Shown one piece after another: positions 1 to 24,973 of a stretch of DNA of 64,000 nucleotides. This DNA comes from Dehalococcoidia bacterium (GTDB lineage Bacteria; Chloroflexota; Dehalococcoidia; Bin125): positions 463,684-527,683 of the forward strand of contig OY760135.1 of assembly GCA_963663185.1 (NCBI GenBank). Reading direction: 5' to 3'. The number at the start of each line of letters is the position of its first letter. The stretch's first letter is position 1. A program made the translations under genes and the position numbers. Below the pieces are notes generated by a model that saw only the letters and a program-made list of their open reading frames with translations, was not told where the DNA came from and did not search any database.

Positions 1-129
1 GGCGACTCTCGACGCAGTCTAGCAGGCTGCTGAACTACGGATGATACGCGCCAGACCTGGCCATCTTCGACGAGTGGACACACGCTGAGCAGCGATCGAC
101 TGGAGGTCCTGTAAGTGAGAGGGCGGGAT

Positions 130-1290
130 CCGGGGCGCTGGTTCCGACGCCTGAGGCCGCGTCGGCGCGGTTCAGCTATGCGGCGGCCGCCTGGATGTTG
201 GCCAGGCGGGTGAGGTTGTAGGCGGCGGCGGTCAGTTCCAACCAGAGCTTGTTGCGGGCCTGTCCGAGATAGCGTAGCTTGCCGCTGGCCTCGACCGTCT
301 TGATCCAGCCGAAGACCTCTTCGACCCGTTTGCGCCGACGTTGACTCTGGCGGCAGCCCTCATGCCGCGTGGTCCGGCCATCGATCGCGCTGCGCCAGCC
401 TGTTCGTTCTGGGCGATGTGCGGCGTACCCCCATCGCCCGCAGGTCCCAGACGAAGTCCCGCGTGTCGTAGCCACGGTCGGCGCCCAGCGTGGCCGGCCC
501 CCGGACGCTGCGCTCCAGCATCGCCAGCGCCGCCTCACGTTCGGCGTAGCCGTCGGCTTCGGTCAGCTCGACATCAACGACCAGCCCGTGACGGTTCTCG
601 GTCAGCAGATGGCCCAGGTAGCAGAGCCTGGCCTCCTGCTGCTTGCCCTTGCGATAGAGCCGCGCCTCAGGGTCGGTGGTCGACTCGTGCGTGTCGCGGC
701 GGCGGCGTTCGCCCTTGAAGTCGACGTCGTGGTTGCGACCGCCGCCTCTGGGTGGTCGCTCATCGCGCGGTCGATAGCTCTTATGCGAGGCCCAGGCGTC
801 GAGCAGCGTGCCGTCGACGCTGAAGTGGTCCTGAGAGAGCAGCCGGCGACGCCTGGCTTCCTTGACCACTTCCTTGAGCAAGACCCGCGCGGCATCGGCT
901 TCCAGCAGCCGCTCGCGGTTCTTCGTGAAGGTCGTTGGATGGAACGGTTCGTCCTCGACATTCAGGTCCAGGAACCACTTGAACAGCAGGTTGTAGCGCA
1001 GCTGCTCGCAGAACTGGCGCTCCGAGCGGATCGTATAGAAGGCCATCAGGAGGCCTGACTTGAGCAGGTGCTCGGGCGGAATCGAGGGTCGTCCGTTGTC
1101 CGCGTAGATCTCGTCGAACAGGGGCGACATGCGCCGCAGGGCCGAGTCGGCCAAGGGCTTGATCCGCCGCAATGGGTGACTCTTGGGCACGAAGCCCTCT
1201 GGCGTCAACCCCAACATCATCGTCGCCTGTCGCTCAGTCTCGCCGCGCATCGCAGACCTCCTTCAGCTATCGGTTCAATACCTCCGCCAT
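130..1290 (-). mobile_element. IS5-family insertion sequence (boundaries approximate)
   Basis: Contains a DDE transposase split over two overlapping minus-strand frames (360..1250 and 176..538). A GATCCGGGG motif lies near both ends (about 135-145 and 1325-1335, inverted) but may be coincidental. Confidence 0.6.
176..1250 (-). pseudogene. IS5-family DDE transposase, frameshifted (or programmed frameshift)
   Basis: The N-terminal ORF 360..1250 has the DDE region (ADRGYDTRDFV ... LRAMGV). The C-terminal ORF 176..538 carries the IS5 C-terminal signature from RRRKRVEEVFGWIK ... LRYLGQARNKLWLELTAAAYNLTRL; its first ~70 aa are out-of-frame. The frames switch around 360-440. Confidence 0.75.
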
Positions 1291-1294
1291 GATC

Positions 1295-1502
1295 TCACAT
1301 ACCCTTCTTCAGCAGCCTGCTAGGCGGACCCCGGATCAGGTGGAACACGGCTTCCTCTGCTTCAAGCGACGCTTCGACCACTTGGACGTGCGCTACGGGG
1401 GGGGGCTGGCCAAGATTCGCCCACGGTTGGCCTTGCTCATGCTCTTCACTAACCTGCTGATCGCCAAGTTGAAAATGGCTATACGCGACCGCATTGCCTC
1501 TA
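1295..1502 (+). pseudogene. Remnant C-terminal fragment of a second IS5-family transposase
   Basis: Translation VEHGFLCFKRRFDHLDVRYGGGLAKIRPRLALLMLFTNLLIAKL matches the IS5-family transposase C-terminal motif (IE..F..LK..f...RYRGLakv...l..a.NL). Only about 70 aa are present, fused in-frame to the downstream cas ORF (artefactual ORF 1172..2848). Confidence 0.6.
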
Positions 1503-1657
1503 AAGGCCCCCGAGACGACAGTCAACTAAGACGCAGCCGATCCGGCCGCCACAACGGCACGCCCAGATGCGATCCTAAGCCAGTAGGTGTGGTTCAGATC
1601 GTTGACATCGCGCTATCACGGCTACGCTTAGTCTGTTCAGTAAGAAGGGCGGCAACT

Positions 1658-2848
1658 GTGCTCGATCTCGAAAGACTCTTGCGTGGCTGTGCAGACGACA
1701 GCGTCGACGACGGCATTCGAATCGATTCTGATCTGCAGCCGCTCTCTGGACCGGACGGGCTCGTGAAGCCAGCGGTTTACGAAGGCGGGACTTACCAACT
1801 AGACCGACGCTGGGCCGATCCAGGAGATGATTCGCCCACGCAAGTGATTGTGATCGATAACGTTCCGTCCCAGGCGAATCGCTTGGAACATGCCCTGTGG
1901 CGTGATCGACATTTGATCGGCATTCCCGAATTCATCCTCGACCTATCGGACATGAACTGGTTGCCGTCGCATTTGCCGCGGTCCATTTCCAGCCTCAAGT
2001 TCCCGCATCGCAATGCCGATGCCTACCTCCGAGATGCCATGCTGGACGGCCAGCCCTTCACTAGAACCGATTTAGGCCAAGCCATCTTCGCAGCCACTGC
2101 ACAGGAATCCAGTGCGCTCATGTCCTGGTTTCCGCAGGCGCTGCTGTATGGATTCTGGCAGTCGCATCTGGGACGTAAACGCCACAACAGCAAGCATGCT
2201 CGGGCATGGGTGTCCGAGATCATCGGCTGGCAGCCTGCCGCACTGGAGACAAAGAGCTTCGGGCTCAAGGGTGATCCCTTGAACCTGAACACCGATGATG
2301 CCGTCAACTCGAACCCGGATGATCGAACGCAGTGGGGCATTGGCCAGGAAGCGAAAGTCGAAGGAGGTAGACGCGACAAGCTCTCGGAAATGGGGCACGG
2401 CCAGGTTCCCTTCATGGGTGAGGACGCAGCCGCCTCTGCCGTCTCGTTTCAGCGCGTGACCCAGCGGGCGACCGTTTCCTTCGCCCAGCTCCGGCGGGTC
2501 AGCCTGGGCAGGGAAGCGTCAACAGAGGCTGACGGCGCGGCAAGAGCCCTATTGGCCGCTCTCGGGCTTCATGCTCATCAGCTCGCATTCGGGCGCGCGT
2601 TCGCGCTGCGTTCTGGTGCCGATCTACGAGCGAGCGCGAGGACCGTGACGTGGCTCGGCTCTTCGAACGATGAAGAATGCGATCTCGGAGGTATCGATGG
2701 GACGCGGGAATTGCTCGCTGCCTGCCGAAGCCACGCCGCCTCGGTCGGAGTGCCCCTCAATGGCTGGGATCAACCCCCAATCATGCTGCAGCCTGGTGAC
2801 GCCTTGGCCAAGGCGATTCGCTCGACCTGGCCCAAACTGGACGACTGA
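1658..2848 (+). CDS. csb1: Type I-G/I-U Cas7-like backbone protein (Csb1-like); start uncertain, GTG at 1658 proposed
   Basis: First gene of a translationally coupled cas operon (its stop overlaps the next ATG as TGATG at 2846-2850). Family assignment rests on position immediately upstream of the Csb2-like gene and on size, not on a motif I can name. The ORF-track start at 1172 is chimeric with IS debris. Confidence 0.45.
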   Translation: MLDLERLLRGCADDSVDDGIRIDSDLQPLSGPDGLVKPAVYEGGTYQLDRRWADPGDDSPTQVIVIDNVPSQANRLEHALWRDRHLIGIPEFILDLSDMNWLPSHLPRSISSLKFPHRNADAYLRDAMLDGQPFTRTDLGQAIFAATAQESSALMSWFPQALLYGFWQSHLGRKRHNSKHARAWVSEIIGWQPAALETKSFGLKGDPLNLNTDDAVNSNPDDRTQWGIGQEAKVEGGRRDKLSEMGHGQVPFMGEDAAASAVSFQRVTQRATVSFAQLRRVSLGREASTEADGAARALLAALGLHAHQLAFGRAFALRSGADLRASARTVTWLGSSNDEECDLGGIDGTRELLAACRSHAASVGVPLNGWDQPPIMLQPGDALAKAIRSTWPKLDD

Positions 2849-4284
2849 TGCTGTCGATCACGGTCGAATTCCTGCACGGCACGTTCCGCGGAGATCCGAA
2901 CGGCACCGCGAACACGGGCCGCTTGACCCGAGCGGAGTGGCCGCCTTCGCCGGCGCGACTGTTCGCGGCATTCGTCGCCGCTGATGGTACGGGAGCAGCG
3001 TGCCGCGTCACCGACGGCGCAGAACTTGAGTGGTTCGAATGCTTGCCGCCACCGTCGATCTATGCGCAAGCGGTCCCGCACCACCAACCGCTTAGGCCTC
3101 GGTTCGTCGTTCGTCACGGCGGTAGCGCCACAAAGGGAAGTCATCAGGAGTATGTGGGCAGAGCGACAGCCATCAATCGCGCCGGCGTGCGGGTCGCACT
3201 GAACATCCCGCAGGTGGTCTATGCGTGGGACAGTGAACCACCGGAGGCCGCCATTCTTGATGCGCTTCGGCTTCGCGCGGCTCGGGTGGGCTATCTCGGC
3301 TCCTCGGATTCGCCGGTGCGCGTTCGCGTCACCACAGACTTGCCTCGCTCAGCAGAACTGACCGACGCGTTCATCCCTGATCCTGTCGGCGGCATGCTGA
3401 TCAACGTGACACAGGTTGGAGACCTTCAGCACTGGGATCGCCTGTACAGGCAGTGGACGGAGCGAGGCGCCTCGGCCGGCCGATCGCAGTATCCGGCGCT
3501 GGTGCACGCCTCCCGCTATCGATCACCAACAGAGGCGAGAGTCGAAGACCAGGGAGAAGTCGTGGCCTGGCTGCGGCTTGCCAGCGCTGTCTCTGGGCGT
3601 CGGATCGCGGCGCTCACGGCGCTATTCAAGGATGCCGTCCTCAGCCAACATCAGCGCATTCACGGCACCCCTCCGGCGGAGTTACACGGACACGGATACA
3701 CCGGAACGGGATATGACATCGCCCGCTATCTGGCGCTTCCTGATGTCGGCTATGCACGATCACGAGGACGAATCCACGGCCTGGCCCTCTGGCTGCCTCC
3801 AGATACTGATGCGAAGATTCGCCAGACTGCCAGCGACGCTGCTCGCTCGATACGGAAGCTCAAGGGCGACGGCATTGACGTGGACATCTCGCCACACGAT
3901 GGCGAAGCTCGTCCTTTTGCCGCCAATCCCGACCGTTGGTTGCGGTCTTCTCGCACTTGGATCACAGCCGTCCCCGCGATTCACGAGCGGCGACGATCGC
4001 TGGATCTTGAGGAAGTTACGCGCTGGTGCAAGCACGCCGGGATACCCGACCCAACAGCGTTCCGAGCGGCCCGCGTGCCCTTCGTTCCAGGTGCTCTCGA
4101 CCTGGCGCCGAGTGAAGTGAACCGTCGCGACCGGCCTCCGCTTCCTTACTCACACATTGAGCTGAGGTTCAATCGCCCGGTACCTGGGCCGTTTGCAATT
4201 GGATCTGGTCGGCAACGGGGCTTCGGACTCTGCGTTCCACTTCATACCGGAACTGACGGTCAGCATCACACAGCGAAACAATGA
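2848..4284 (+). CDS. csb2: Type I-G/I-U Cas5/Cas6-fusion-like protein (Csb2-like)
   Basis: N-terminus MLSITVEFLHGTFRG...RAEWPPSPARLFAAFVAA matches the conserved EWPPxP-ARLF-A-V motif I recall for the Csb2 (GSU0054) family. 478 aa; start overlaps upstream stop and stop overlaps cas3 start (ATGA). Confidence 0.6.
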   Translation: MLSITVEFLHGTFRGDPNGTANTGRLTRAEWPPSPARLFAAFVAADGTGAACRVTDGAELEWFECLPPPSIYAQAVPHHQPLRPRFVVRHGGSATKGSHQEYVGRATAINRAGVRVALNIPQVVYAWDSEPPEAAILDALRLRAARVGYLGSSDSPVRVRVTTDLPRSAELTDAFIPDPVGGMLINVTQVGDLQHWDRLYRQWTERGASAGRSQYPALVHASRYRSPTEARVEDQGEVVAWLRLASAVSGRRIAALTALFKDAVLSQHQRIHGTPPAELHGHGYTGTGYDIARYLALPDVGYARSRGRIHGLALWLPPDTDAKIRQTASDAARSIRKLKGDGIDVDISPHDGEARPFAANPDRWLRSSRTWITAVPAIHERRRSLDLEEVTRWCKHAGIPDPTAFRAARVPFVPGALDLAPSEVNRRDRPPLPYSHIELRFNRPVPGPFAIGSGRQRGFGLCVPLHTGTDGQHHTAKQ

Positions 4285-7064
4285 GCGTGCCGCAAACAAC
4301 GTTCTCCGACTTTTACCGGGCTGTCCATGGCCATCCGCCTTTCCCCTGGCAGGCGCGTCTGGCCGAGCAGATCGCTCGGACCGACGAGTGGCCGGCCGAG
4401 ATTGGCGTGCCTACCGGACTTGGCAAGACGGCCTGCTTGGACATTGCGATCTGGTGGCTGGCGTCCCAGGCAGACCGCCACCCGAGCCAGCGGACCGCGC
4501 CAACCCGCATCTGGTGGGTGGTCAATCGGCGTCTGTTGGTCGATTCGACGGCTGAACACGCTGAGCGCCTGGCGCAAATGCTTGCCGCACCTGCCCTGGC
4601 CGGATTGGAAGGCCCGGCGCTGGCGGCGATTGACGATGTAGCCGAGCGCCTCAGTCGTCTCTCGACGATTGCAGACCTACCTCCGCTGGACGTGATTCGA
4701 TTGCGCGGCGGTGTGGCCTCCCGAGCCCCGACCGACCCATCACGCCCGACCGTGATCCTGTGCACCCTGCCAATGTTCGGTTCCTGGCTCTTGTTTCGTG
4801 GGTACGGTTCGAGGTACCGCCCGATCGACGCCGCGATGGCGGGCACCGACAGTCTCGTGCTCCTGGATGAGGCGCATCTGGTCCCCCACCTGACGTCGCT
4901 CGTGGCTGCCTTGGGTGATTGTGCACCCGCCGCGCAGGCGATTCCTGGCGATGCTCGCTCCAGCGCCAGATTGATCTCGTTGACCGCGACAGGCGATCCT
5001 TCAGGTTCCAGATTTGACCTAGACGAATCAGATGAAGCGAATCCGATCGTGAGGAAGCGGCTCGATGCCGCGAAGCCGCTGGAGATTAGGCGGCTCGAAA
5101 GAGGCGAGATTGCCAAGCGCCTAGCGGACTCGGCACTCGAACTCCTGTTGCAGGCAGCTTCGCCGGCAGCCTGCCTGGTCTTCGCCAATACCCCGAAGAC
5201 GGCACGGGAAACGTTCGGCCACCTACAGGGCAAACTGCCAGAGACAGAGACTGAACTGCTATTGCTCACCGGGCTCGCTCGCGAACGGGAGGCGGAATGG
5301 ATCCGCCGGCGGATCCTCGATCCGGCCGAGGGCATGGCCGTCAATCGAAGAGACGACAGCCCGCGCCGCCGGCACCTAATCGTTGTTGCAACGCAGACGC
5401 TTGAGGTGGGCGCCGATCTCGATGCCGAATATCTCGTCACCGAGGCTTGCGGCGTGCGGGCGCTGACTCAGCGCTTGGGCAGGTTGAACCGGCTCGGCCG
5501 TCACCCTCACGCTCGGGGGATATACATCCATCTCCCTCCGCCTAAGCGGCGCGGCGGTTCAACGTCGGAGGAATGGCCCGTCTATGGTTCGGAGCCAGCA
5601 GCGGTCCTGAGCCGACTGGATGTTGCATCCGCAGGGGGCGACGTTCGAGTCGTGGATTTGTCGCCGAGGCGGGTGGCTGAAGTCCTCGGCCCTCCTGGCG
5701 ACGATCCCGGACGCGCGCCCGAACTCTTGCCTGGCATCCTCTGGGAGTGGACGAAAACGACAATCCCACCCGATGGCGAGGCCCCGGTTGAGCCGTACTT
5801 GAGCGGCATCGCGGGCGCCGAATACAGGGTTGCCCTTTGTTGGCGCGTGCACATACCTGAGCAAGGTGAGCGCCTTTGGCCGCGGGCAAGCGACGGTGAA
5901 ACCGTTGATGTCCCAATCGCGGAAGTGCGAGAGGCGCTTCGGATGGACGATGTCGTCCATCGCCTGGCATCTGATGGGGTCACTGTGGAAACCGTTGAGC
6001 CTGGACTTCTTCGCCCGGGAGACCAGCTTGTGATTTCAGCTGACCGTGGTCTCTTGGACGGATTTGGCTGGAATCCGGCCGCCACCGGCCGCGTCGTAGA
6101 CACGTCCCTCATCGGCCAGGGGCTGCCCCTCGACAGAAAGGCGATCAAACGGCTCTGCGAAGTCGAACTGGAACCGCACGTCTTGGCCGCGTTGGAAACG
6201 GCCGAGGACGGCGATACCGATCAAGAAGAACGAAGCGCAGCGGTAGCGACAGTGTTACAGCAAGTTCGCGATGCGAAGACGCCGGACGGATGGGACGATG
6301 CTGAATGGGCCGAGTTCACCCAGTCACTCTCGTTGGTGGTCGAAGAAGCGCGCCACGAAGTTCCCCGGCTGCGGGCTAATGTTTCTGGGTCAACCCGGCC
6401 GCGCAGCGACCTGGGCAGTGAGTTCGACGAACTGTCTCTGCATTCTGCCTCGGTTGGACTCGAAGAACACGGCCGGGAAGTCGGCGCGATGGCTCGCTCG
6501 ATTGCTGGGAACATCGGCCTCTCTGATGACCTTGTGGACGTAGTGGGGCTCGCGGGACTGCTGCACGATATCGGCAAGGCCGATGAACGGTTCCAGCGCT
6601 GGCTCGATCCCGAAGGCGAACAGAGTGCGCTCTTGGCGAAGTCCAACACGCCGCGGCATCGTTGGGAGGCGACCCGCGCTGACGCTGGATGGCCCCGCGG
6701 CGGTCGACACGAGGATATCTCGGCTCGTCTGGTCAGGACGTGGCTCGAACAGAACCCAGCATGGGGTGATCCAGTGCGCAGGGATCTGTTGCTGCACCTC
6801 GTAATCAGCCACCACGGCAAGGGTCGGCCGTTGGTCCCGCCTGCTGCCGACGGCACCGCGAGAATAGTCTCTGCACAGGTGAACGGCACATCCGTCACGG
6901 CACAAGCGGACCTCTCCATCGTTGACTGGAGTCAGCCGCGACGGTTCAGGCAGCTCAACGACCAGTTCGGACCCTGGGGTCTGGCCTTGCTGGAGTCGAT
7001 TGTGCGATTGGCAGACCATGCCGTTTCGGCCGGCGTGGTTTTGTCTGGGGAGGTGACTCAATGA
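4281..7064 (+). CDS. cas3: Cas3 helicase-nuclease with C-terminal HD domain (type I-G/I-U architecture)
   Basis: SF2 helicase motif I VPTGLGKT, motif II LLDEAHL, later RLGRLNRLGR. C-terminal HD domain LLHDIGKADERFQ ... ISHHGKGRP. The helicase-then-HD order is typical of I-U/I-G Cas3. Confidence 0.85.
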   Translation: MSVPQTTFSDFYRAVHGHPPFPWQARLAEQIARTDEWPAEIGVPTGLGKTACLDIAIWWLASQADRHPSQRTAPTRIWWVVNRRLLVDSTAEHAERLAQMLAAPALAGLEGPALAAIDDVAERLSRLSTIADLPPLDVIRLRGGVASRAPTDPSRPTVILCTLPMFGSWLLFRGYGSRYRPIDAAMAGTDSLVLLDEAHLVPHLTSLVAALGDCAPAAQAIPGDARSSARLISLTATGDPSGSRFDLDESDEANPIVRKRLDAAKPLEIRRLERGEIAKRLADSALELLLQAASPAACLVFANTPKTARETFGHLQGKLPETETELLLLTGLAREREAEWIRRRILDPAEGMAVNRRDDSPRRRHLIVVATQTLEVGADLDAEYLVTEACGVRALTQRLGRLNRLGRHPHARGIYIHLPPPKRRGGSTSEEWPVYGSEPAAVLSRLDVASAGGDVRVVDLSPRRVAEVLGPPGDDPGRAPELLPGILWEWTKTTIPPDGEAPVEPYLSGIAGAEYRVALCWRVHIPEQGERLWPRASDGETVDVPIAEVREALRMDDVVHRLASDGVTVETVEPGLLRPGDQLVISADRGLLDGFGWNPAATGRVVDTSLIGQGLPLDRKAIKRLCEVELEPHVLAALETAEDGDTDQEERSAAVATVLQQVRDAKTPDGWDDAEWAEFTQSLSLVVEEARHEVPRLRANVSGSTRPRSDLGSEFDELSLHSASVGLEEHGREVGAMARSIAGNIGLSDDLVDVVGLAGLLHDIGKADERFQRWLDPEGEQSALLAKSNTPRHRWEATRADAGWPRGGRHEDISARLVRTWLEQNPAWGDPVRRDLLLHLVISHHGKGRPLVPPAADGTARIVSAQVNGTSVTAQADLSIVDWSQPRRFRQLNDQFGPWGLALLESIVRLADHAVSAGVVLSGEVTQ

Positions 7065-7960
7065 CAGAGTTTGACTGCCCTGGCTGGCCTGCATCCTGGG
7101 TTAACGCCTGGCTTGCGGCGGTCGGGGCTACTCTGCTCGACGAACGCATTCGCCTGAGTTGGACTGATGAAGCCGAGCCCAAGGCTGTGCTTGCGTGCAC
7201 GACGATTGATCCTCTTGACGCCCTCACGGAGTCGTGGCCAGACGCCGACTTTCTGTCCACTCTGCCGATTGCTGAGGACTGGCAAGGCGCGGGTCGGCTC
7301 GGACGGAAGGTGAAGGTTGCAGACTTCAGAGTGCGCGCACGATCGGCTCGAAGCAACAATCGAGCATGGACCCTTTCGTCGACAATCACCGATCTCAGCG
7401 TCGACCGGCAGGGAGAAGTCCTTCACGCGCCGTTCGATCCGGCAGGTCCCGGGACTACGAAATGGCTGCACCACCGTCTGGTGAAGGTCCATCGGCACGT
7501 GAGGTGCCCATTGTCAACCTTGCGAGCGTCGCTTAGCGGACAAGCCGAACGTGTGAAGGACAATGGCTTGGGTTTCGACCAGACCAGACTCGGTTCCCTA
7601 CAGGACGCGACGGATCCCTGGGTTGATCCGATTGTTGAAGTGTTAGCCTTCTTTGGTCTAGGCATTTTTCCTGTACGCGGCCGCGGGGTTGACGGACAAC
7701 TTGACCGCTCAGCCGACCTCCGCGTGCGACAGCGAGGGTGGCGGCAATCAGAGGTTCGCGGCGAACCAGCAAGTTTCCTCTGGCCTGCGTGGCACCAGCC
7801 ACTTGATCGCGACGGGATCGATGCTCTATTGGATGCCTGGAAACCAGATCGTCAAGACACCTGGTCGCAGCTAGGCATTCACGCCGGGTGGCATACCATC
7901 CAGTTTCAACGCAGAGGTGATGCCGATTCGACGCGCGCGTTCGGATCAGCGCGACTATGA
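7061..7960 (+). CDS. Cas-operon protein of unknown role (Csb3-like; possibly the large-subunit/Cas8u equivalent)
   Basis: 299-aa ORF translationally coupled between cas3 and cas4. No motif recognised; assignment by position only, from a recalled Dpsyc-subtype order csb1-csb2-cas3-csb3-cas4-cas1-cas2. Confidence 0.35.
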   Translation: MTEFDCPGWPASWVNAWLAAVGATLLDERIRLSWTDEAEPKAVLACTTIDPLDALTESWPDADFLSTLPIAEDWQGAGRLGRKVKVADFRVRARSARSNNRAWTLSSTITDLSVDRQGEVLHAPFDPAGPGTTKWLHHRLVKVHRHVRCPLSTLRASLSGQAERVKDNGLGFDQTRLGSLQDATDPWVDPIVEVLAFFGLGIFPVRGRGVDGQLDRSADLRVRQRGWRQSEVRGEPASFLWPAWHQPLDRDGIDALLDAWKPDRQDTWSQLGIHAGWHTIQFQRRGDADSTRAFGSARL

Positions 7961-8574
7961 GTCCTGAGCCTGTCGTCCAAATCTCGGCGATCGAGCACTT
8001 TATCTATTGTCCGCGGCAGTGCGCCATCATCCACTGCGATGGCGTCTGGAGCGACAACACCCACACCGTTAGGGGCACGCGCGCGCACCGACGAGTGGAT
8101 TCTGGCGAGCATCGTCGCGAACGGGGACGGCAGGTGCTGCGCTCAATCCCGCTCTGGTCGGAGGCGCTTGGGCTAACCGGCCGCGCAGACGCGGTGGAGG
8201 TACAAGAGGACTTGGTGTGGCCAGTGGAATACAAGGCCGGAGTTCGCCACGGCAACGCCGCGGACCTTCAACTGTGTGCCCAAGCGCTCTGTCTCGAAGA
8301 GATGCTTGAGATTGAGATTGCGCACGGGTACGTGTGGTATGGCGGCCCGAGAAGACGCGTGAAGGTTGACTTTACAGAGGCGCTGCGCAAGGAAGTACAC
8401 GAGGTCATTGCGGCGATCAGGAAACAACTGCTGACGTTCAGTTTGCCGGAAGCACCGAACGACGCGCGCTGCCAAGAGTGCCAGCTCTTGCACCACTGCT
8501 TACCGGAGCTCAGCAGCGCTCCGCTTCGAGTAAATCGTTACATTGAGAACGTCGTCTTCCAATGCGATACCTAA
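7957..8574 (+). CDS. cas4: Cas4 (RecB-like nuclease with Fe-S cysteines)
   Basis: N-terminal YCPRQC and C-terminal CQECQLLHHC cysteine cluster; conserved VEYK in the middle. Stand-alone, not fused to cas1. Confidence 0.8.
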   Translation: MSPEPVVQISAIEHFIYCPRQCAIIHCDGVWSDNTHTVRGTRAHRRVDSGEHRRERGRQVLRSIPLWSEALGLTGRADAVEVQEDLVWPVEYKAGVRHGNAADLQLCAQALCLEEMLEIEIAHGYVWYGGPRRRVKVDFTEALRKEVHEVIAAIRKQLLTFSLPEAPNDARCQECQLLHHCLPELSSAPLRVNRYIENVVFQCDT

Positions 8575-9578
8575 ACACCGTTTACGTTCGGGACCATCGT
8601 GCTCAGATTCGCCATCGTAAAGGATCACTGATCGTCTCTTCGCCAACAGGCAGCCAGCGAGTCCCATTGGAGGCGGTAGATGGATTGGTGTTGCTGGGTG
8701 GAGCTCAAATTACGTCGCAAGCGCTTGACGCCTGCGTCCGTGGTGGCGTGCGCGTCGCAGCACTCAAGATGAGTGGTGCTGTCCGCTTCGTCGTCCTCGG
8801 TCCCACGAGTGGCAACGTGCATTTGCGGACAGCACAGTTCGAAGCCGTCATGGACGACAATCGATCGTTGACAATGGCCCAGTCGATCGTGGCAGCGAAA
8901 CTGCAGAACAGCAGGAAAGTCGTCGCGCGCTGGGCGAGGGACGAGAAGCGCCCCGCTGAGGCTGAGCAGCTTGCATCACGTGCATCGCAGATCGAGGCGC
9001 GGATTGCGCGCTTGCCGAAAGCTGAATCGGCGAACGGCGTGCGCGGCATAGAAGGCGACGCAGCGAGAATCTACTTTCGCGCTCTCAGGCTGGCACTATC
9101 GTCAAGCGAGCTCGAGTTCTCGGGTCGCACACGCCGACCGCCGAGAGACCCCATCAATGCACTGATGGGGTTCTGCTATGGCATGGTCGTGACCGAGTGC
9201 ATCGGCGCCGCCGAGAGTGTCGGCTTGGACTTTCAGATGGGATGCTTCCACCGGCCCCGCGCCGGTCGACCCTCACTTGCGCTCGACTTGGCGGAAGAGT
9301 TTCGTGCGCTCACGGACAGGTTCGTTGTCTCGCTGGTCCGCCGCCGGCAGATCGGCCCCGATGACTTTGACCACACACCCGGAGGCGCTGTGTATCTCAG
9401 CGATGGCGGCAGAACTCGGCTGCTCGCTTCCTGGGAGCAGCACAAGGAGACGGAGATTTATCACCAGTTGCTGGGCCGTCCAGTCGAGCGATGGGCACTG
9501 CCGTCGGTCCAGGCCACGCTTCTCGCTCGCCACCTGCGTGGAGACCTTCCAGCCTATCCACCGTTCGTGTTGCCCTAA
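8562..9578 (+). CDS. cas1: Cas1 integrase
   Basis: 338 aa, Cas1-like N-terminus (MRYLNTVYVRDHRAQIRHRKGSLIV ...) and acidic C-terminal half. Overlaps cas4 end and precedes cas2. Confidence 0.85.
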   Translation: MRYLNTVYVRDHRAQIRHRKGSLIVSSPTGSQRVPLEAVDGLVLLGGAQITSQALDACVRGGVRVAALKMSGAVRFVVLGPTSGNVHLRTAQFEAVMDDNRSLTMAQSIVAAKLQNSRKVVARWARDEKRPAEAEQLASRASQIEARIARLPKAESANGVRGIEGDAARIYFRALRLALSSSELEFSGRTRRPPRDPINALMGFCYGMVVTECIGAAESVGLDFQMGCFHRPRAGRPSLALDLAEEFRALTDRFVVSLVRRRQIGPDDFDHTPGGAVYLSDGGRTRLLASWEQHKETEIYHQLLGRPVERWALPSVQATLLARHLRGDLPAYPPFVLP

Positions 9579-9582
9579 GACC

Positions 9583-9873
9583 ATGGACGTTATCGTCACT
9601 TACGATATCGCTGACACGCAAGGAGCAGGCCGGGTGCGCCTCAGACGCGTGGCCGACGTCTGCGGAAAGTACGGTCAACGGGTCCAGTTCTCAGTGTTCG
9701 AGTGTCGCCTCTCGAACACGAAGCTGACCCGTATGATCGGCGAGATCGAGGACGTAATCGATCGTCGGAAAGACTCTGTGATCGTCTACCGGTTCCCTGG
9801 TGCTGCTGAAGACTCGAAAATTCACCTTGGCCGCACCGATTCGCGAAAGCTCGGGGAACCTTGGATACTCTGA
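9583..9873 (+). CDS. cas2: Cas2
   Basis: ATG at 9583, 96 aa: MDVIVTYDIADTQGAGRVRLRRVADVCGKYGQRVQFSVFECRL... is the typical Cas2 fold signature. The ORF-track start at 9217 is an upstream in-frame extension. Confidence 0.8.
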   Translation: MDVIVTYDIADTQGAGRVRLRRVADVCGKYGQRVQFSVFECRLSNTKLTRMIGEIEDVIDRRKDSVIVYRFPGAAEDSKIHLGRTDSRKLGEPWIL

Positions 9874-10025
9874 GCACCGCTGCGAACCGCCGGTGATTCG
9901 GTTTCTCAACCGCCCGAAATGCTCCATGTCAGCGAAAGCAGACTTTCAAGTGACCTCCACGGGTAGTAGAATCACGAAGAAGGGAGTCTTGCCCCTCCGC
10001 CTTGACAACAGAATCCGATTTAGCA
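9874..10025 (+). promoter_or_regulatory. Putative CRISPR leader
   Basis: 152-bp region between cas2 stop and first repeat. The terminal, degenerate repeat is at the opposite end of the array, consistent with a leader here. Confidence 0.5.
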
Positions 10026-10794
10026 GTGTCGCCGGGATTCAGGTCCCGGCCTTCGTTGAGCGCGGGGCCGCGCCGAATCTGACGGTAACGTCACCGCCGT
10101 GTCGCCGGGATTCAGGTCCCGGCCTTCGTTGAGCGAGCGCTAACGCACTCCAGTGCACTAACGCGCGCGTGGTGTCGCCGGGATTCAGGTCCCGGCCTTC
10201 GTTGAGCGCTCAAACTCAAACATTGGACTCTCAATCCCTAGCGGTGTCGCCGGGATTCAGGTCCCGGCCTTCGTTGAGCGGGCTCGCACGTACACGATCA
10301 CGGGGTTGACAGCAGGAGTGTCGCCGGGATTCAGGTCCCGGCCTTCGTTGAGCGACTGCTGACATGGCGACTACGCTGAGCCTTGACGAGTGTCGCCGGG
10401 ATTCAGGTCCCGGCCTTCGTTGAGCGGAATGGCGTCGGTTACATCCGGCTGTTCGGGCTGATTGTGTCGCCGGGATTCAGGTCCCGGCCTTCGTTGAGCG
10501 CGACAGGAAAACTGATGTCGCTCAGCCCATCAATGGGTGTCGCCGGGATTCAGGTCCCGGCCTTCGTTGAGCGCCGAATGCCGACGACGACTACGTGGGG
10601 GCAGTGGAGGTGTCGCCGGGATTCAGGTCCCGGCCTTCGTTGAGCGCGCTCGGTCGTGGCCGAGCTGGGCCGCCGCGGGATGCAGGTGTCGCCGGGATTC
10701 AGGTCCCGGCCTTCGTTGAGCGCCGCGAACGCGTGGACACACGGCCAGAGAGACAGGGTGTCGCCGGGATTCAGGTCCCGGCCTTCGTTGAGCC
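10026..10794 (+). CRISPR. CRISPR array, 11 repeats of 37 nt (GTGTCGCCGGGATTCAGGTCCCGGCCTTCGTTGAGCG), 10 spacers of 35-39 nt
   Basis: Repeat starts at 10026, 10099, 10172, 10244, 10318, 10390, 10464, 10537, 10610, 10686, 10758. The repeat contains hairpin CCGGGA-TTCAGG-TCCCGG. The last repeat differs at its final base (C for G). Confidence 0.95.
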
Positions 10795-10881: not shown

Positions 10882-11496
10882 ATGGGCAGCGATTTACTAT
10901 CACGGACCGAGGCGCGACGGATCGAGGCGCTTGCTGGACTCGACGCCGAGACACAGGCTAGGCTCGGTCAATTCTTTACCCCAGAGCCCGCTGCCCGGCT
11001 TATGGCGGGCATGCCAATCCTGCCGCGATCGGGAGTCTTGCGGGTGCTCGACCCCGGTGCTGGCGTCGGGTCACTCTCTGCCGCCCTGGTTGACCGCGTT
11101 CTGTCAGACGACTCAAACCTTGCGGTTAAAGTTACGGCCGTTGAAGTCGATCCTCGCGTAGCCGCCCCGCTCAGGGAAACAATGGCAGACTGCGAGACCA
11201 GCGCCCTCCGAGTAGGTCGGCTGGTTTCCACCAGGGTCGTCATTGTCGACTACATCGAATCGAGCGTCGGCTTGCTCGGCATTCAAGCCCTCCAAGGACC
11301 CTTCGACATCGTCCTCATGAATCCTCCCTACGCGAAGCTCGGCACTGACTCACCGCACCGTAGGCACGCCATGGGAGTAGGTCGAGTTCGGTACCAGCGG
11401 CCCAAGCGCGTTACCGTTGAGAGTAGCGGCGCCATGCGCCGACGGCTGAGACGAGGCCGGTCATGGTTCGGCTCATTGGCGCCATTGCCGCGTTGA
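10882..11496 (+). pseudogene. Truncated N6-adenine DNA methyltransferase (N-terminal fragment only)
   Basis: Motif X GQFFTPE, motif I VLDPGAGVGSL and motif IV DIVLMNPPY are present. After NPPYAKL the translation becomes basic low-complexity and stops after about 50 aa with no target-recognition domain. The 3' end overlaps the next gene by 34 nt. Confidence 0.6.
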
Positions 11497-13271
11497 TCCT
11501 CTGCCTTGTGACGCTCAGTGCCTGCGCGGAAGAGATCAACACCTGGCAGCCGCCGGCGGAACTTGGGATCTGTGCGCGGACGCTCGCCGTACGCGAGGCA
11601 ATTGTCGCTCAGACCGACCGCGTGCACAGCTGCGCGTTCATTGATGCGGACGACCTGGATGCGATCCGAACACTGGACCTCAGCGGTCGCGACATCACGG
11701 CGCTCCAGGCCGGCGACTTTGAGGGATTGCGCAGGCTGCGAGAGTTGCGGCTCAACGGCAATGCCCTGCGCACGCTGCCTCACGGCATCTACGACGGATT
11801 ACCCATGCTCCGCCTGATACACCTGCACGAAAATCCCGGCGCCCCGTTCCCGCTGCGCATCGATCTGCAAGTCGGCCAGGAGCGCGACGAACGAAGGCTC
11901 TACCTGCGACTGCCGCTGCGGCCGCCTGGACGCGTCGTCGCCCATCTGCAGAGCGACGGTTTGATGCTCTATCAGATTGCCGCAACGATCGATGCGGGCA
12001 GCCACGTCGGCCGCGAAGTCTACATAGAACGGAGCAACACGGCGGCGGGGACAGCGCGGGTGCTGCGCGTGGCAGTTGATCGAGAAGTAGCAGACTGCGG
12101 TCCGGAGGCCTGCTGGACCGGGATCGTGCTGATGGGGCAGCGCGATGCTGTCGAGATCCCTGCATTAGCAGGCGACGGCGAGCCGCTGCAAGGGTTACCG
12201 ACGCTAGTGCTGCGCGTTGATTCGCAATCGTTCGTCCACGACGCAGTTGTCGAACGGGGCGTCATTTCCGGTTCGGGCGGCTGGCGTTACTACGAGTACG
12301 CCGAACGACCTGACGGGGACGACGACAGAGTTGATTGCACGGTCACCTCGTACAACTACGTTACAAGACGCGGTGCAGGCATGGGCAGCTCGTTGCAATA
12401 CGATGGCCCTTGTCGGCTAGCGATCGGTAGCGGATCGAGCAATACTGCGTACAACTTGCCGGCCAGGCGAATCAACCAAGACATGACATTGGACCGGCGC
12501 AGCGGCGACCCCTGTCTGGCGTCGAACAATCTGCGGATCGAGGCCGACGCTGCGAGTCTCGGTGAGATCGAGCGGATCGACGCCGTCAACGTTCATGCTG
12601 AGAGCCGCTGCTACTACTACATCAGCGTCGCGCAGGATCCCAATCGAGCCGCGCCGTTCCGCTTTGCCGATGGCGAGTCCTGCGTCGTCGAAGTCGTCAA
12701 CGGGCGGATTTCCTCGTCCGGCTGCAAGGAGCTGGTCTGGTGGGGCGGCTGGGGGTTCGGCGGAATCGACTCGCTGGCCGAGGCACGCGCCGACGCTGCA
12801 CTGACACGCCCATATGTGAACGGTGAAGAGCACATCAAACGGCTGGCCGCGATCGCCGCCTGTGAGACCCTGCCTGAGGTGTCGCTGACGCTGGACGAGA
12901 ATTCGTTTCGCGAATCCCCATTCCACTACCAGTCAGTGAGCGATGATCAAAGGCTCTGCGAGCTGAGCATTACAGCCATGGGTCCGGAGGACGCGCTCGC
13001 CGCAGGTGAACGCTGCGTGGTCTCCGCCAGGTTTGCGTTGGCGAACGTCGTGAGTACACTTCCGACTCAGCAGTCGGGCCACTGCGATCAGATTGTGCAT
13101 CAGGCAAACTGGTCGCAGTCCAGCGGCCGCTGGAGCGAGGAGGAGCGGCAGGCGTTCCTCGAACAATACGCATCACAACTATGGTCCTTAAGCGACGCAG
13201 ACTGGCAACGGCTGCGCGAGGGTCATTTCTGCATTGACGACATCTGCACGCCGGTGCCGACAGCACAGTAA
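11463..13271 (+). CDS. Secreted lipoprotein with N-terminal leucine-rich repeats and a Cys-rich C-terminal region
   Basis: Signal peptide plus lipobox MVRLIGAIAALILCLVTLSAC. LRR consensus LDLSGRDITALQAGDFEGLRRLRELRLNGNALRTLPHGIYDGLPMLRLIHLHEN. 602 aa. Confidence 0.7.
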   Translation: MVRLIGAIAALILCLVTLSACAEEINTWQPPAELGICARTLAVREAIVAQTDRVHSCAFIDADDLDAIRTLDLSGRDITALQAGDFEGLRRLRELRLNGNALRTLPHGIYDGLPMLRLIHLHENPGAPFPLRIDLQVGQERDERRLYLRLPLRPPGRVVAHLQSDGLMLYQIAATIDAGSHVGREVYIERSNTAAGTARVLRVAVDREVADCGPEACWTGIVLMGQRDAVEIPALAGDGEPLQGLPTLVLRVDSQSFVHDAVVERGVISGSGGWRYYEYAERPDGDDDRVDCTVTSYNYVTRRGAGMGSSLQYDGPCRLAIGSGSSNTAYNLPARRINQDMTLDRRSGDPCLASNNLRIEADAASLGEIERIDAVNVHAESRCYYYISVAQDPNRAAPFRFADGESCVVEVVNGRISSSGCKELVWWGGWGFGGIDSLAEARADAALTRPYVNGEEHIKRLAAIAACETLPEVSLTLDENSFRESPFHYQSVSDDQRLCELSITAMGPEDALAAGERCVVSARFALANVVSTLPTQQSGHCDQIVHQANWSQSSGRWSEEERQAFLEQYASQLWSLSDADWQRLREGHFCIDDICTPVPTAQ

Positions 13272-13280
13272 TCAGCGAGA

Positions 13281-13499
13281 TTGACCGCCGACCAGATTTC
13301 CAATCGGCTGAGCCCTCGCAGCAAACGCGAGGGTTGTTCAAGCTCGGAGCGGGTTATGGGCGGATTCGCGCCCGTTGCGTACGGCTTCAACTGCTTTGCA
13401 GTCACCTGCATCGCCCTGAGCGCGGCGCTGATGTTGGTGTCGATACTCTTGCCTGACGACATCAGCGGCAGGGAGCGGCAGGGACTCAGTAATGACTAA
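13281..13499 (+). CDS. Small hypothetical membrane protein (one TM helix), low confidence
   Basis: 72-aa ORF with hydrophobic stretch FAVTCIALSAALMLVSILL. A second 47-aa TM ORF (13493..13636, MTNRTERVAIKLCYGIRAIVLMPTMILLGLVLMVH...) follows; neither is supported by anything else. Confidence 0.2.
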   Translation: MTADQISNRLSPRSKREGCSSSERVMGGFAPVAYGFNCFAVTCIALSAALMLVSILLPDDISGRERQGLSND

Positions 13500-13776
13500 C
13501 CGCACCGAGAGAGTTGCGATCAAGCTCTGCTACGGCATCCGGGCGATTGTGTTGATGCCGACAATGATCCTGCTGGGTCTCGTCCTGATGGTCCACGACC
13601 GCCTGAGCGGTCGCCGCCAAGCTCTGCGCCGTTGACGCGCTAGCGCTGCATCTCGATCCAGACAGAGTGCATACGGCCATCAAGCTGGACCTCGAACTTC
13701 TGCGCCTCGCCCGGTTCGAAGATGACGCCGTAATCGTGCAGCGCCCGGGTGAACGCCTCGTGAGTATCCTCCTATC

Positions 13777-24925: not shown

Positions 24926-24973
24926 GCCGCTTTCTCCCCTCGTAGACCTGTGCGTCAACCTCTACTCCGTCGC

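What the first reader, a model, noticed from the sequence alone, without database searches (positions are those of the whole stretch)
1658..10794. Atypical type I-G/I-U (Dpsyc-like) CRISPR-Cas locus: cas3 in the middle, unfused cas4 and cas1, a small Csb3-like ORF, and no recognisable large subunit
Gene order reads cas7u(csb1)-cas5/6(csb2)-cas3(helicase then HD)-299-aa unknown-cas4-cas1-cas2-array, all translationally coupled. This differs from the Geobacter-type I-G order (cas3-cas8u2-cas7-cas5/6-cas4/cas1 fusion-cas2). No Csx17/Cas8u2-sized gene is present. Either the 299-aa ORF is a minimal large subunit (or Csb3), or the large-subunit gene lay upstream of csb1 and was destroyed by the IS insertions at 130-1500. 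The array (10 spacers, uniform repeats, degenerate terminal repeat) still looks intact.
Basis: partly seen in the sequence, partly recalled or inferred. Interest (0 to 1): 0.65.

Follow-up and report, generated by a model that had tools for sequence, protein, structure and literature searches.

The report
Complete type I-G CRISPR-Cas, small-Cas8 variant
This is an intact CRISPR-Cas immune locus of the known subtype I-G. Its "missing" large subunit is the 299-residue gene after cas3, so the locus is a divergent member of a catalogued arrangement and has not been damaged by the nearby IS element.

Summary
**Observation.** The gene order is as described: cas7g/csb1, csb2, cas3g, a 299-aa ORF, cas4, cas1, cas2, then 11 repeats and 10 spacers. 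All ORFs are intact and tightly packed.

**Interpretation.** It is only partly right.
- The 299-aa protein ("x299") belongs to a large family of stand-alone ~290-aa proteins.
- This family is homologous to NCBIfam NF049934 ("type I-G CRISPR-associated protein, Cas3-extension family"). That family corresponds to a type I-U/I-G large-subunit profile in PADLOC. hhalign gives 99.5% probability over 271 columns.
- The window protein itself scores below NCBI's cut-off (57 against 65 bits).
- About 80 related loci share the same seven-gene order. They have unrelated genes upstream of cas7, so no cas8 was lost to the IS.
- cas7-csb2-cas3-(~300 aa) also occurs in Rhodothermus, Thermus, Azotobacter and Streptomyces.
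- In Geobacter-type loci a 288-aa Cas8g2 follows cas3 directly. The order here is therefore a permutation that keeps cas3 and the small large subunit adjacent.

**What is particular here.** cas4 and cas1 are unfused and resemble type I-C. The large-subunit branch is divergent and unannotated. The clade is found mostly in MAGs whose names point to sponge symbionts, across many phyla.

**Limits.** The protein's fold has no significant match in the PDB, and no spacer targets were found.

**Verdict.** A new member of a known kind, of modest interest.

The parts
19..1323 (-). IS5/IS1182-like insertion sequence (context only, not part of the system). The transposase is split into two ORFs.
   Evidence: 16-bp perfect inverted repeats at 19-34 and 1308-1323. 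NF033581 IS5-family transposase, 186 bits. The short-read contig L001 breaks inside it.
1324..1553 (+). Remnant of the C-terminal end of a second transposase gene. Homology to the closest related locus begins only at 1554.
   Evidence: Sequence read. blastn to L005 starts at window 1554.
1658..2848 (+). cas7g / csb1 (396 aa), the Cascade backbone subunit
   Evidence: TIGR02570 66-67 bits (cut-off 38). PF09617 117 bits. PADLOC Cas7g 4.7e-33. Relatives align from residue 1-2.
2848..4284 (+). csb2 (478 aa), the Cas5-Cas6 fusion and I-G signature gene; presumed crRNA endonuclease
   Evidence: TIGR02165 180.5 bits over the full length (cut-off 45). PADLOC Cas56g 5.8e-74.
4281..7064 (+). cas3g (927 aa), with the helicase N-terminal and the HD nuclease C-terminal
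   Evidence: TIGR02621 597 bits (cut-off 400). HD domain at 727-860. GLGKT at 46, DEAH at 196, HD at 762.
7061..7960 (+). 299-aa small Cas8g-like protein (large-subunit analogue), a divergent branch of the NF049934 'Cas3-extension' superfamily
   Evidence: NF049934 57.1 bits, below the 65-bit cut-off. PDLC01514 Cas8g large-subunit profile 9.3e-5. Family to NF049934 family: hhalign 99.5%, E 1.2e-22, 271 columns. 241 clusters at 50% identity, of which the 150 listed are about 100-400 aa and none long enough to be a Cas3 fusion. AF2 pLDDT 93.8.
7957..8574 (+). cas4 (205 aa), not fused to cas1
   Evidence: TIGR00372 124 bits. Best PADLOC match is Cas4c, 1.6e-68. Four Fe-S cysteines (18, 172, 175, 181) and the D78/E91/K93 motif are present.
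8562..9578 (+). cas1 (338 aa), closest to type I-C
   Evidence: TIGR03640 (I-C) 343.5 bits, against 278 bits for the Cas4g/Cas1g model. PF01867 285 bits.
9583..9873 (+). cas2 (96 aa)
   Evidence: TIGR01573 61.5 bits. Best PADLOC match is Cas2c, 1.2e-26.
9874..10025 (+). Presumed leader between cas2 and the first repeat
   Evidence: This region aligns with the corresponding region of L005. No sigma-70 consensus was found.
10026..10794 (+). CRISPR array: 11 repeats of 37 nt and 10 spacers of 35-39 nt. Each repeat has a 7-bp hairpin and a 12-nt 3' tail that is nearly invariant among relatives.
   Evidence: Hairpin of -15.2 kcal/mol. Across 25 distinct repeats from relatives, 100% of cells pair and 6 of 7 pairs show compensatory changes; 0 of 500 shuffles reach this.

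Best explanation

**Inferred mechanism** (from characterised I-G systems, not shown here)
1. The array is transcribed on the + strand.
2. The Cas6-like C-terminal domain of Csb2 binds the conserved repeat hairpin and cuts the precursor.
3. Several Cas7g copies coat the spacer.
4. The 299-aa protein plays the role of the large subunit. It would join Cascade, take part in PAM and target recognition, and couple Cascade to Cas3g, whose gene always lies immediately upstream of it.
5. Cas3g (helicase plus HD nuclease) then degrades the target.
6. Spacers are acquired by a separate Cas4, Cas1 and Cas2 module of type I-C flavour, rather than by the Cas4-Cas1 fusion typical of I-G.

**Role of the IS.** The IS element upstream is incidental. 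It did not remove a cas gene.

**Shown:** gene identities, intact catalytic motifs, conserved operon structure, repeat hairpin covariation, and homology of the 299-aa protein to the NF049934/PDLC01514 family.

**Inferred:** that this family is a Cascade subunit, that it binds Cas3, and that this particular locus is expressed.
For: **Gene assignments.** All lie above curated cut-offs except the 299-aa protein.

**The 299-aa family**
- 979 homologues were found at 90% clustering and 241 clusters at 50%.
- The 150 listed cluster representatives are about 100-400 aa (full-length ones about 280-330 aa), with no Cas3-length fusions.
- 96 of 97 diverse members hit NF049934, and 89 of 97 hit the I-U large-subunit profile PDLC01514.
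- Profile-profile matches to the NF049934 family reach 98.2% and 99.5%.

**Same order elsewhere**
- The seven-gene order is kept in about 70 complete loci from many phyla.
- No conserved gene lies upstream of cas7.
- The effector order is also seen in cultured bacteria. There the gene after cas3 scores above the NF049934 cut-off: R. marinus 143 bits, Azotobacter 152, Streptomyces 167 and Methylomagnum 160.

**A ~290-300-aa gene follows cas3 in other sub-variants too**
- Cereibacter has cas3-Cas8g2(288 aa)-cas7-cas5/6-cas4/1-cas2.
- Actinomyces oris has cas3 followed by a 303-aa 'Cas8u2'.

**Experimental precedent**
- Small-large-subunit I-G systems give interference. Geobacter cas3-8-7-5/6 does so with a TTN PAM (PMC6547450).
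- B. animalis Csb1/Csb2/Csb3 co-purify with crRNA and interfere together with Cas3 (bioRxiv 10.1101/2022.08.19.504415).
- Cas3 is an integral subunit of the I-G effector (PMC9638904).

**Signs of activity**
- Related loci carry arrays of up to 108 or more repeats with the same repeat.
- The hairpin covaries.
- Catalytic motifs of Cas3, Cas4 and Cas1 are intact.
Against: - The window protein scores 57.1 bits, below NF049934's 65-bit cut-off, and only 20 bits against PDLC01514.
- The label 'large subunit' for this family comes from profile annotation, not from any experiment I could find.
- Homology to the tested Cas8g2 (TIGR04106) family is not demonstrable. hhalign gives 11% and 0.2%.
- The AF2 model has no Cas11-like helical bundle and no significant neighbour in the PDB. 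The best matches are the I-B Cascade chains 8ip0_J and 8h67_L (which I take from their length of 467-496 residues to be Cas8b) at E 0.19-0.34, and a I-A Cascade chain at E 1.0.
- No protospacer or PAM was found.
- Only 104 bp of native sequence remains upstream of cas7, and the array is short (10 spacers against 32 in the closest relative). Expression of this copy is therefore uncertain.
Confidence: 0.72

Rival explanations
1. The real large-subunit gene (Csx17/Cas8g1) lay upstream of csb1 and was destroyed by the IS insertions. On this reading the locus is a crippled I-G system.
For: An IS5-family element and a second transposase remnant occupy 19-1553, directly upstream of cas7. No Csx17-like gene was found among the large ORFs of the window that were checked.
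Against: Loci L002-L005 and about 70 further complete loci have the same seven genes. Each has different genes upstream of cas7, and no upstream ORF is shared by more than 3 loci. The closest relative, L005, has only a 55-aa ORF before cas7, and its homology to the window resumes 104 bp upstream of cas7.
Confidence: 0.02
2. The 299-aa protein is not a Cascade subunit. Instead it is an obligate partner ('extension') of Cas3g. On this reading Cascade consists only of Cas7g, Csb2 and crRNA, as in the Cas8-less type I-F2. The protein would act as the Cas3-side adaptor or regulator.
For: Its gene always follows cas3 directly, whatever the order of the other genes. In the window it overlaps the cas3 stop codon. 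NCBI's curators named the family 'Cas3-extension'. The model has no Cas11-like domain. Cas8-independent Cas3 recruitment has precedent in type I-F2 (PMC12956352).
Against: No Cas3 fusions were seen among the 150 + 61 listed homologues. Makarova-derived profiles label the family as a large subunit. In B. animalis the third small protein, Csb3, co-purifies with Csb1, Csb2 and crRNA (bioRxiv 10.1101/2022.08.19.504415). In T. sulfidiphilus Cas3 is itself part of the effector, so the two readings overlap.
Confidence: 0.18
3. The 299-aa protein is a RAMP-derived subunit (Cas5/Cas6-like, RRM fold). It would cap the crRNA 5' handle, filling the Cas5 position that I-G Cascade lacks. It would not be a Cas8 homologue.
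For: Makarova et al. 2011 (PMC3150331) proposed that the extra small I-G protein 'Csb3' resembles Cas6-family RAMPs. Both AF2 models begin with a beta-alpha-beta-beta-alpha unit. The R. marinus-type model's top PDB hit is Cas6 TTHA0078 (E 0.38), followed by many ferredoxin-like folds.
Confidence: 0.12
4. The locus is intact in sequence but silent or decaying in this genome, because the IS insertions removed its promoter.
For: Only 104 bp of native upstream sequence remain. No sigma-70-like promoter was found in 1300-1700. The array has 10 spacers, against 32 in L005 and more than 100 in several relatives.
Against: All seven ORFs are full length with intact motifs. Repeats are uniform. The sigma-70 consensus scan is of little value for this kind of organism. 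IS copies sit beside the same locus in L002, L004 and L027, which have long arrays.
Confidence: 0.15

Closest known systems
Type I-G (formerly I-U) systems of the Rhodothermus marinus pRMAR01 / Thermus thermophilus / Azotobacter chroococcum / Streptomyces plasmid arrangement: cas7u-csb2-cas3u-(~300-aa NF049934 protein)
   Same: The effector gene order is the same. The Cas7g, Csb2 and Cas3g families are the same. The gene after cas3 is homologous (hhalign 99.5%). An array lies downstream.
   Different: The window protein falls below the NF049934 cut-off (57 against 65 bits), while those proteins score 143-167 bits. R. marinus has a fused Cas4-Cas1 of 537 aa, whereas cas4 and cas1 are separate here and resemble type I-C. 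Thermus and Azotobacter show no annotated adaptation genes within the stretch fetched.
Geobacter sulfurreducens-type I-G: cas3-cas8g2 (GSU0052; also labelled Csx14, Csb3 or 'Cas8c'; TIGR04106)-cas7-cas5/6-cas4/1-cas2. Seen here in Cereibacter sphaeroides plasmid CP031754.
   Same: It has the same four effector functions. A ~290-aa protein is encoded immediately after cas3. The window order is a permutation that keeps cas3 and the small large subunit adjacent. Interference has been shown experimentally with a TTN PAM (PMC6547450).
   Different: The gene order is permuted. The Cas8g2 family is not detectably homologous to the window protein (no HMM hit; hhalign 11%). Only short motifs are shared in the same order. 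Cas4 and Cas1 are fused there.
Thioalkalivibrio sulfidiphilus type I-G with Cas8g1/Csx17 (720 aa), the only I-G Cascade studied by cryo-EM (PMC9638904)
   Same: Cas7g, Csb2 and Cas3g are shared. Cas3 is an integral effector subunit there. There is no separate cas11 gene.
   Different: Cas8g1 is 720 aa and has a Cas11-like helical C-terminal domain. The window protein is 299 aa, mixed alpha/beta, and lacks such a domain. No profile match to Csx17 was found.
Bifidobacterium animalis subsp. lactis type I-G (Csb1, Csb2, Csb3, Cas3, Cas4-Cas1, Cas2)
   Same: It has a three-protein Cascade with a small third subunit, and it is functional in interference and genome editing (10.1101/2022.08.19.504415; PMC12915315). 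Cas3 lies between cas5/6 and cas1/4 in B. moukalabense (PMC7284854). Repeats are 36-37 nt with a hairpin and a 12-nt tail.
   Different: I could not obtain the Bifidobacterium Csb3 sequence, so its relation to the window protein is untested. The adaptation genes are fused there. The related Actinomyces oris protein belongs to another profile (PDLC01103), which only 11 of 97 members of the window family touch weakly.
Type I-C adaptation module (Cas4c, Cas1c, Cas2c)
   Same: The best profile matches of the window's Cas4, Cas1 and Cas2 are the I-C models (Cas1 scores 343.5 bits against TIGR03640). The genes are separate, as in I-C.
   Different: Cas1 lies below the I-C model's trusted cut-off of 385 bits. 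The effector genes are not I-C. The repeat is 37 nt.

Membership tests
CRISPR-Cas subtype I-G (I-U) | Csb2, a Cas5-Cas6 fusion (signature gene) | tested here: met
   TIGR02165 180.5 bits over residues 1-464 (cut-off 45). PADLOC Cas56g 5.8e-74.
CRISPR-Cas subtype I-G (I-U) | Cas7g / Csb1 backbone protein | tested here: met
   TIGR02570 66-67 bits (cut-off 38). PF09617 116.6 bits.
CRISPR-Cas subtype I-G (I-U) | Cas3g with the helicase N-terminal to the HD nuclease | tested here: met
   TIGR02621 597 bits (cut-off 400). HD at 727-860, Walker A at 46, DEAH at 196.
CRISPR-Cas subtype I-G (I-U) | A Cas8g-type large subunit (Cas8g1/Csx17, Cas8g2, or another small variant) | tested here: inconclusive
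   There is no hit to Csx17 or TIGR04106. NF049934 scores 57 bits, below the 65-bit cut-off. The PADLOC I-U large-subunit profile PDLC01514 gives E 9e-5. At family level the match is clear (89 of 97 members; hhalign 99.5% to the NF049934 family). The large-subunit role of that family is annotation, not experiment.
CRISPR-Cas subtype I-G (I-U) | Fused Cas4-Cas1 (frequently cited as typical of I-G) | tested here: not met
   cas4 (7957-8574) and cas1 (8562-9578) are separate ORFs in different frames that overlap by 13 nt. The same holds in all complete relatives. The best matches are I-C models. This feature is typical rather than signature, so the subtype assignment stands on Csb2, Cas7g and Cas3g.
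CRISPR-Cas subtype I-G (I-U) | No separate cas11 gene | tested here: met
   The genes abut or overlap from 1658 to 9873, leaving no room for another gene. No Cas11 profile hit was found.
NCBIfam NF049934, 'type I-G CRISPR-associated protein, Cas3-extension family' | Score at or above the curated cut-off (65 bits) | tested here: not met
   57.1 bits, E 2.2e-15. 96 of 97 family members hit the model, with a best E-value of 4.8e-25. The protein is homologous (hhalign 99.5%) but lies outside the curated equivalog.
NCBIfam NF049934, 'type I-G CRISPR-associated protein, Cas3-extension family' | Encoded immediately downstream of cas3g | tested here: met
   The window gene's start overlaps the cas3 stop by 4 nt. 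The position is the same in about 80 relatives and in the R. marinus, Thermus, Azotobacter and Streptomyces loci.
Cas8g2 / GSU0052 / Csx14 / 'Csb3' (TIGR04106) | Match to the TIGR04106 profile (cut-off 125 bits) | tested here: not met
   No hit at E of 10 or below. hhalign of the two family alignments gives 11% probability over 71 columns. A genuine member (Cereibacter, 288 aa) scores 217 bits.
Cas8g1 / Csx17 | [quoted passage not shown] | tested here: not met
   The protein is 299 aa, has no C-terminal helical bundle in the AF2 model, and gives no profile hit. A structural comparison with the Cas8g1 N-terminal domain could not be run.

The most novel reading that the evidence does not exclude
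The ~290-aa family may not be a Cas8 homologue at all. It could be a distinct, RRM-based adaptor that is permanently bound to Cas3g, replacing both Cas8 and Cas11. On that reading the small-subunit I-G variants would work as a Cas8-less Cascade with a pre-assembled Cas3-adaptor module. That would be a third route to Cas3 recruitment, alongside Cas8-dependent recruitment and the Cas8-independent I-F2 type. The sponge-symbiont clade would offer about a thousand natural variants with which to study it.
Probability: 0.15. Interest if true: 0.6.

Novelty: new member of a known kind. Interest (0 to 1): 0.3.

Why it matters
- **Annotation.** It removes an apparent anomaly (a type I system with no large subunit). 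It also shows that a family of about a thousand proteins, named 'hypothetical protein' wherever a source names them at all, is the I-G small large-subunit analogue. Lowering or extending the NF049934 model would annotate them.
- **Biology.** The small I-G large subunits have no solved structure. Their fold has no significant PDB neighbour, and their relationship to Cas8 is unresolved. This well-sampled clade, with a high-confidence AF2 model, is a good starting point for that question.
- **Ecology.** The same compact seven-gene system, often with arrays of over 100 spacers, appears in MAGs of at least eight phyla. Many of these carry names of sponge-symbiont taxa. That pattern points to extensive horizontal exchange of one CRISPR-Cas type within that community.
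- **Scale.** None of this overturns current understanding.

Tried and rejected
**Cas8 lost to the IS.** Rejected by comparative context.

**Cas8g1 elsewhere in the window.** Nine ORFs, including all of 600 aa or more, were scanned with Pfam. None is Cas-related.

**Spacer targets**
- blastn of the whole array against 50,697 phage and 72,556 plasmid records gave nothing below E 0.2.
- Exact 24-mers of four spacers against IMG/VR gave 0 matches.
- 2,507 spacers from related loci against the window and all loci gave only 18-30-nt partial matches, consistent with chance. No PAM could therefore be derived.

**Structure neighbours**
- Foldseek against the PDB gave no significant hit for the window protein or for the R. 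marinus-type homologue.
- A sequence profile against PDB chains gave nothing.

**Cas3 fusions.** I looked for fusions that might explain the 'Cas3-extension' name. None appears among the listed homologues.

**Homology to Cas8g2 (TIGR04106).** Only short shared motifs were found, and hhalign gives 11% and 0.2%. Homology to the Actinomyces 'Cas8u2' gives 15%.

**tblastn of the 299-aa protein against plasmids.** No match.

**Rfam on the array.** No CRISPR-DR family matched.

**Sigma-70 promoter scans.** Nothing was found upstream of cas7 or in the leader.

**The megabase contig of the source genome.** It could not be read. Only short-read contigs of run ERR3887492 were returned.

Full report
**1. 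What is in the sequence**

The + strand of window 1658-9873 carries seven tightly packed ORFs followed by a CRISPR array. Curated profiles identify six of the seven without ambiguity.

| Gene | Coordinates | Key evidence |
|---|---|---|
| cas7g/csb1 | 1658-2848 | TIGR02570 66 bits, cut-off 38 |
| csb2 | 2848-4284 | TIGR02165 180.5 bits over the full length, cut-off 45 |
| cas3g | 4281-7064 | TIGR02621 597 bits, cut-off 400; HD domain at 727-860 |
| 299-aa ORF | 7061-7960 | see section 3 |
| cas4 | 7957-8574 | TIGR00372 124 bits |
| cas1 | 8562-9578 | PF01867 285 bits |
| cas2 | 9583-9873 | TIGR01573 61.5 bits |

- The motifs expected of active enzymes are present.
  - Cas3 has GLGKT at 46, DEAH at 196 and HD at 762.
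  - Cas4 has four Fe-S cysteines and the D/E/K nuclease motif.
  - Cas1 has conserved acidic and histidine residues.
- The mechanically listed ORF 1172-2848 is an artefact. Relatives align from residue 1-2 of the GTG-1658 product. Nucleotide homology to the closest locus starts only at 1554.
- The array spans 10026-10794.
  - It has 11 copies of a 37-nt repeat and 10 spacers of 35-39 nt.
  - Only the last base of the last repeat differs.

**2. The IS did not remove a gene**

- Positions 19-1323 are an IS5/IS1182-like element with perfect 16-bp inverted repeats and a split transposase.
- It sits inside the remnant of another transposase gene that runs to about 1553.
- Exact-protein look-ups and a scan of 185,579 species genomes returned 84 related loci.
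  - In every locus long enough to judge, the order is cas7-csb2-cas3-(~299 aa)-cas4-cas1-cas2-array.
  - The genes upstream of cas7 differ from locus to locus. After clustering all upstream ORFs, none is shared by more than three loci.
- None of the nine large ORFs checked in the rest of the 64-kb window is Cas-related.

The 'large subunit destroyed by IS' alternative is rejected. The seven genes are the complete system.

**3. The 299-aa protein**

*Size and conservation of the family*
- It has 979 homologues among 90% clusters (the 120 listed share 60-90% identity) and 241 clusters at 50% identity.
- The 150 listed cluster representatives are about 100-400 aa, and full-length ones are about 280-330 aa. 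None is long enough to be a Cas3 fusion.
- Where public sources name these proteins at all, they call them 'hypothetical protein'.

*Profile matches*
- Alone, the window protein scores 57.1 bits (E 2e-15) against NCBIfam NF049934, 'type I-G CRISPR-associated protein, Cas3-extension family'. This is just below the 65-bit cut-off.
- It scores E 9e-5 against PADLOC PDLC01514, a 287-position profile labelled 'Cas8g; CAS-I-U; effector_LS'.
- Across 97 diverse members, 96 hit NF049934, 89 hit PDLC01514 (best 3.5e-15) and 11 touch PDLC01103 ('Cas8u2, new large subunit family').
- Profile-profile comparison with five and then 54 true NF049934 members gives 98.2% and 99.5% probability. The second has E 1.2e-22 over 271 columns, nearly the full length.

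The protein is therefore a divergent branch of a catalogued family. The Makarova-derived profile set treats that family as the I-U/I-G large subunit.

**4. The arrangement is known in genomes**

*Same order in cultured bacteria*
- Annotated plasmids of Rhodothermus marinus, Thermus thermophilus, Azotobacter chroococcum and Streptomyces carry cas7u-csb2-cas3u followed by a 253-336-aa 'hypothetical protein'.
- Most of those proteins score 143-167 bits against NF049934, and R. marinus scores 263 bits against PDLC01514. The Thermus protein scores 62 bits.

*Notes in the literature*
- M. heckeshornense has '[csb1-csb2-cas3-hypothetical protein-IS1380-cas1-cas2]' (PMC10333696).
- A Bifidobacterium I-G has cas3 between cas5/6 and cas1/4 and 'no cas8u2' (PMC7284854).
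- Makarova et al. 2011 (PMC3150331) and Shangguan et al. 2022 (PMC9638904) describe three I-G variants that differ in the large subunit.

*Other sub-variants*
- In the Geobacter-type order, seen here in Cereibacter sphaeroides, the gene right after cas3 is a 288-aa Cas8g2.
  - It scores 217 bits against TIGR04106.
  - Sources name this family Csx14, Csb3, 'Cas8c' or Cas8g2.
- In Actinomyces oris a 303-aa 'Cas8u2' follows cas3.

*Consequences*
- 'No Cas8u2-sized gene' was a misjudgement of size.
- The window order is a permutation of the Geobacter order that preserves the adjacency of cas3 and the small large subunit.
- That adjacency fits with Cas3 being an integral part of the I-G effector (PMC9638904). 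It also fits a direct interaction between Cas3 and this protein, although that interaction is inferred and not shown.

**5. What remains open about the protein**

*Sequence relationships*
- It is not a member of TIGR04106. There is no HMM hit, and hhalign of the family alignments gives 11%.
- Only two short motifs recur in the same order in all three small families. One is N-terminal, of the form 'x-LAA-x-G'. The other is 'FD-x-RR ... P-V-V-E-L-L-A' followed by an aromatic 'W/Y-x-W'.
- Common ancestry is plausible but unproven.

*Structure*
- AlphaFold2 gives a confident single-domain-like alpha/beta model (pLDDT 93.8, pTM 0.93). It begins with a beta-alpha-beta-beta-alpha unit and has no C-terminal helical (Cas11-like) bundle.
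- Foldseek against the PDB finds nothing significant.
  - The top hits for the window protein are two type I-B Cascade chains of 467-496 residues, which I take from their length to be Cas8b (E 0.19-0.34, TM 0.33), and a type I-A Cascade chain (E 1.0, TM 0.38).
  - For a model of the R. marinus-type homologue (pLDDT 90.8) the top hit is Cas6 TTHA0078 (E 0.38), followed by many ferredoxin-like folds.
- This leaves two readings open. The protein could be a reduced Cas8 N-terminal domain, or it could be RAMP-derived, as Makarova et al. 2011 proposed for 'Csb3'.

**6. Array and crRNA**

- Sixty related loci carry arrays downstream of cas2 on the same strand. Their repeats share a nearly invariant 3' tail, CTTCGTTGAGCG.
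- The 7-bp stem pairs in 100% of cells across 25 distinct repeats. Six of the seven pairs show compensatory changes. None of 500 shuffles reaches this, and slid registers drop to 36-66% pairing.
- The window repeat folds to -15.2 kcal/mol.
- Arrays reach 108 or more repeats within the fetched flanks, so the clade acquires spacers actively.
- Spacer lengths peak at 35-37 nt.
- No protospacer was found in phage, plasmid or IMG/VR collections, or within the loci. The PAM is therefore unknown.

**7. What is particular to this clade**

- *Adaptation module.* cas4 and cas1 are separate, and together with cas2 they match I-C models best (Cas4c 1.6e-68, Cas1c 1.9e-104, Cas2c 1.2e-26). R. marinus and Geobacter-type loci have the Cas4-Cas1 fusion. 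This looks like an exchange of the adaptation module, which is common in CRISPR-Cas evolution.
- *Divergent large-subunit branch.* The branch is divergent enough to escape NCBI's annotation.
- *Distribution.*
  - The 80 genome hits are almost all MAGs.
  - They come from Acidobacteriota, Chloroflexota, Gemmatimonadota, Latescibacterota, Spirochaetia, Rhodothermales, Actinomycetota, Pseudomonadota and Cyanobacteria.
  - Many carry names of sponge-symbiont taxa, such as Ca. Synechococcus spongiarum, Ca. Poriferisodalis and Ca. Palauibacter.
  - Cas1 is 53-93% identical across these phyla, which suggests horizontal spread.
  - The window itself carries LRR and giant Calx-beta proteins and a type IIG R-M gene downstream. 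From my own knowledge, that fits a sponge-symbiont genome.

**8. Verdict**

- It is wrong in suggesting loss of a cas8 gene, and wrong in treating the order as exceptional.
- The locus is a complete type I-G system of a catalogued arrangement, with a divergent small Cas8g-like protein and an unfused I-C-like adaptation module.
- It is a new member of a known kind, and interest is modest (0.3).
- The most novel reading still open is that these ~290-aa proteins are not Cas8 homologues but Cas3-bound adaptors of a Cas8-less Cascade. I put that at about 0.15.

Noticed in passing
window 19-1553: An IS5/IS1182-like element (16-bp perfect inverted repeats, transposase split into two ORFs) is nested in the remnant of another transposase gene. 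Related IS copies lie beside the same CRISPR-Cas locus in L002, L004 and L027.
   Followed up: partly
L012, L019, L021, L041, L045, L049, L054, L056, L082: In these related loci tblastn found no cas1 or cas2, and at most a short cas4 remnant. In L012, L019, L021, L054 and L082 repeats begin shortly after the ~299-aa gene. These look like effector-only copies, similar to the Thermus and Azotobacter plasmids.
   Followed up: partly
L019/L021 (OZ244976.1, 26 kb apart); L020/L023; L007/L008: Some genomes carry two copies of this I-G variant, in one case 26 kb apart on the same chromosome.
   Followed up: no
L027 10001-10891 compared with its neighbouring genes: In Chloroflexi bin125, Cas7, Csb2, Cas3, Cas1 and Cas2 are 79-88% identical to the window. 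The 299-aa homologue is only 58% identical, which suggests replacement or fast evolution of this one gene.
   Followed up: no
L060 about 4223 and L063 about 4267: Repeat matches also occur upstream of cas7 in these two Gemmatimonadota loci, so arrays may flank the operon on both sides.
   Followed up: no
window 10882-16695: Directly after the array lie a weak N6-methylase-like ORF (10882-11496), an LRR protein (11463-13271) and a 972-aa Eco57I-like type IIG restriction-modification gene (13777-16695). Together with the CRISPR locus these form a defence island. The first ~290 nt after the array are shared with L005.
   Followed up: partly
window 19378-31534 and 49822-54354: Three very large Calx-beta / He_PIG / LapA-domain proteins (1593, 1043 and 975 aa) are encoded on the minus strand. 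A 1510-aa ResIII/DEAD helicase of unknown role is also present.
   Followed up: no
L092 10704-11279 (Actinomyces oris plasmid): This I-G locus has an extra Cas6/CasE-like gene between the small Cas8u2 and cas7, in addition to Csb2. It is another I-G sub-variant.
   Followed up: no
locus list: Nearly all 80 genome hits are MAGs, many from sponge-symbiont lineages of at least eight phyla. One CRISPR-Cas variant appears to circulate within that community.
   Followed up: partly
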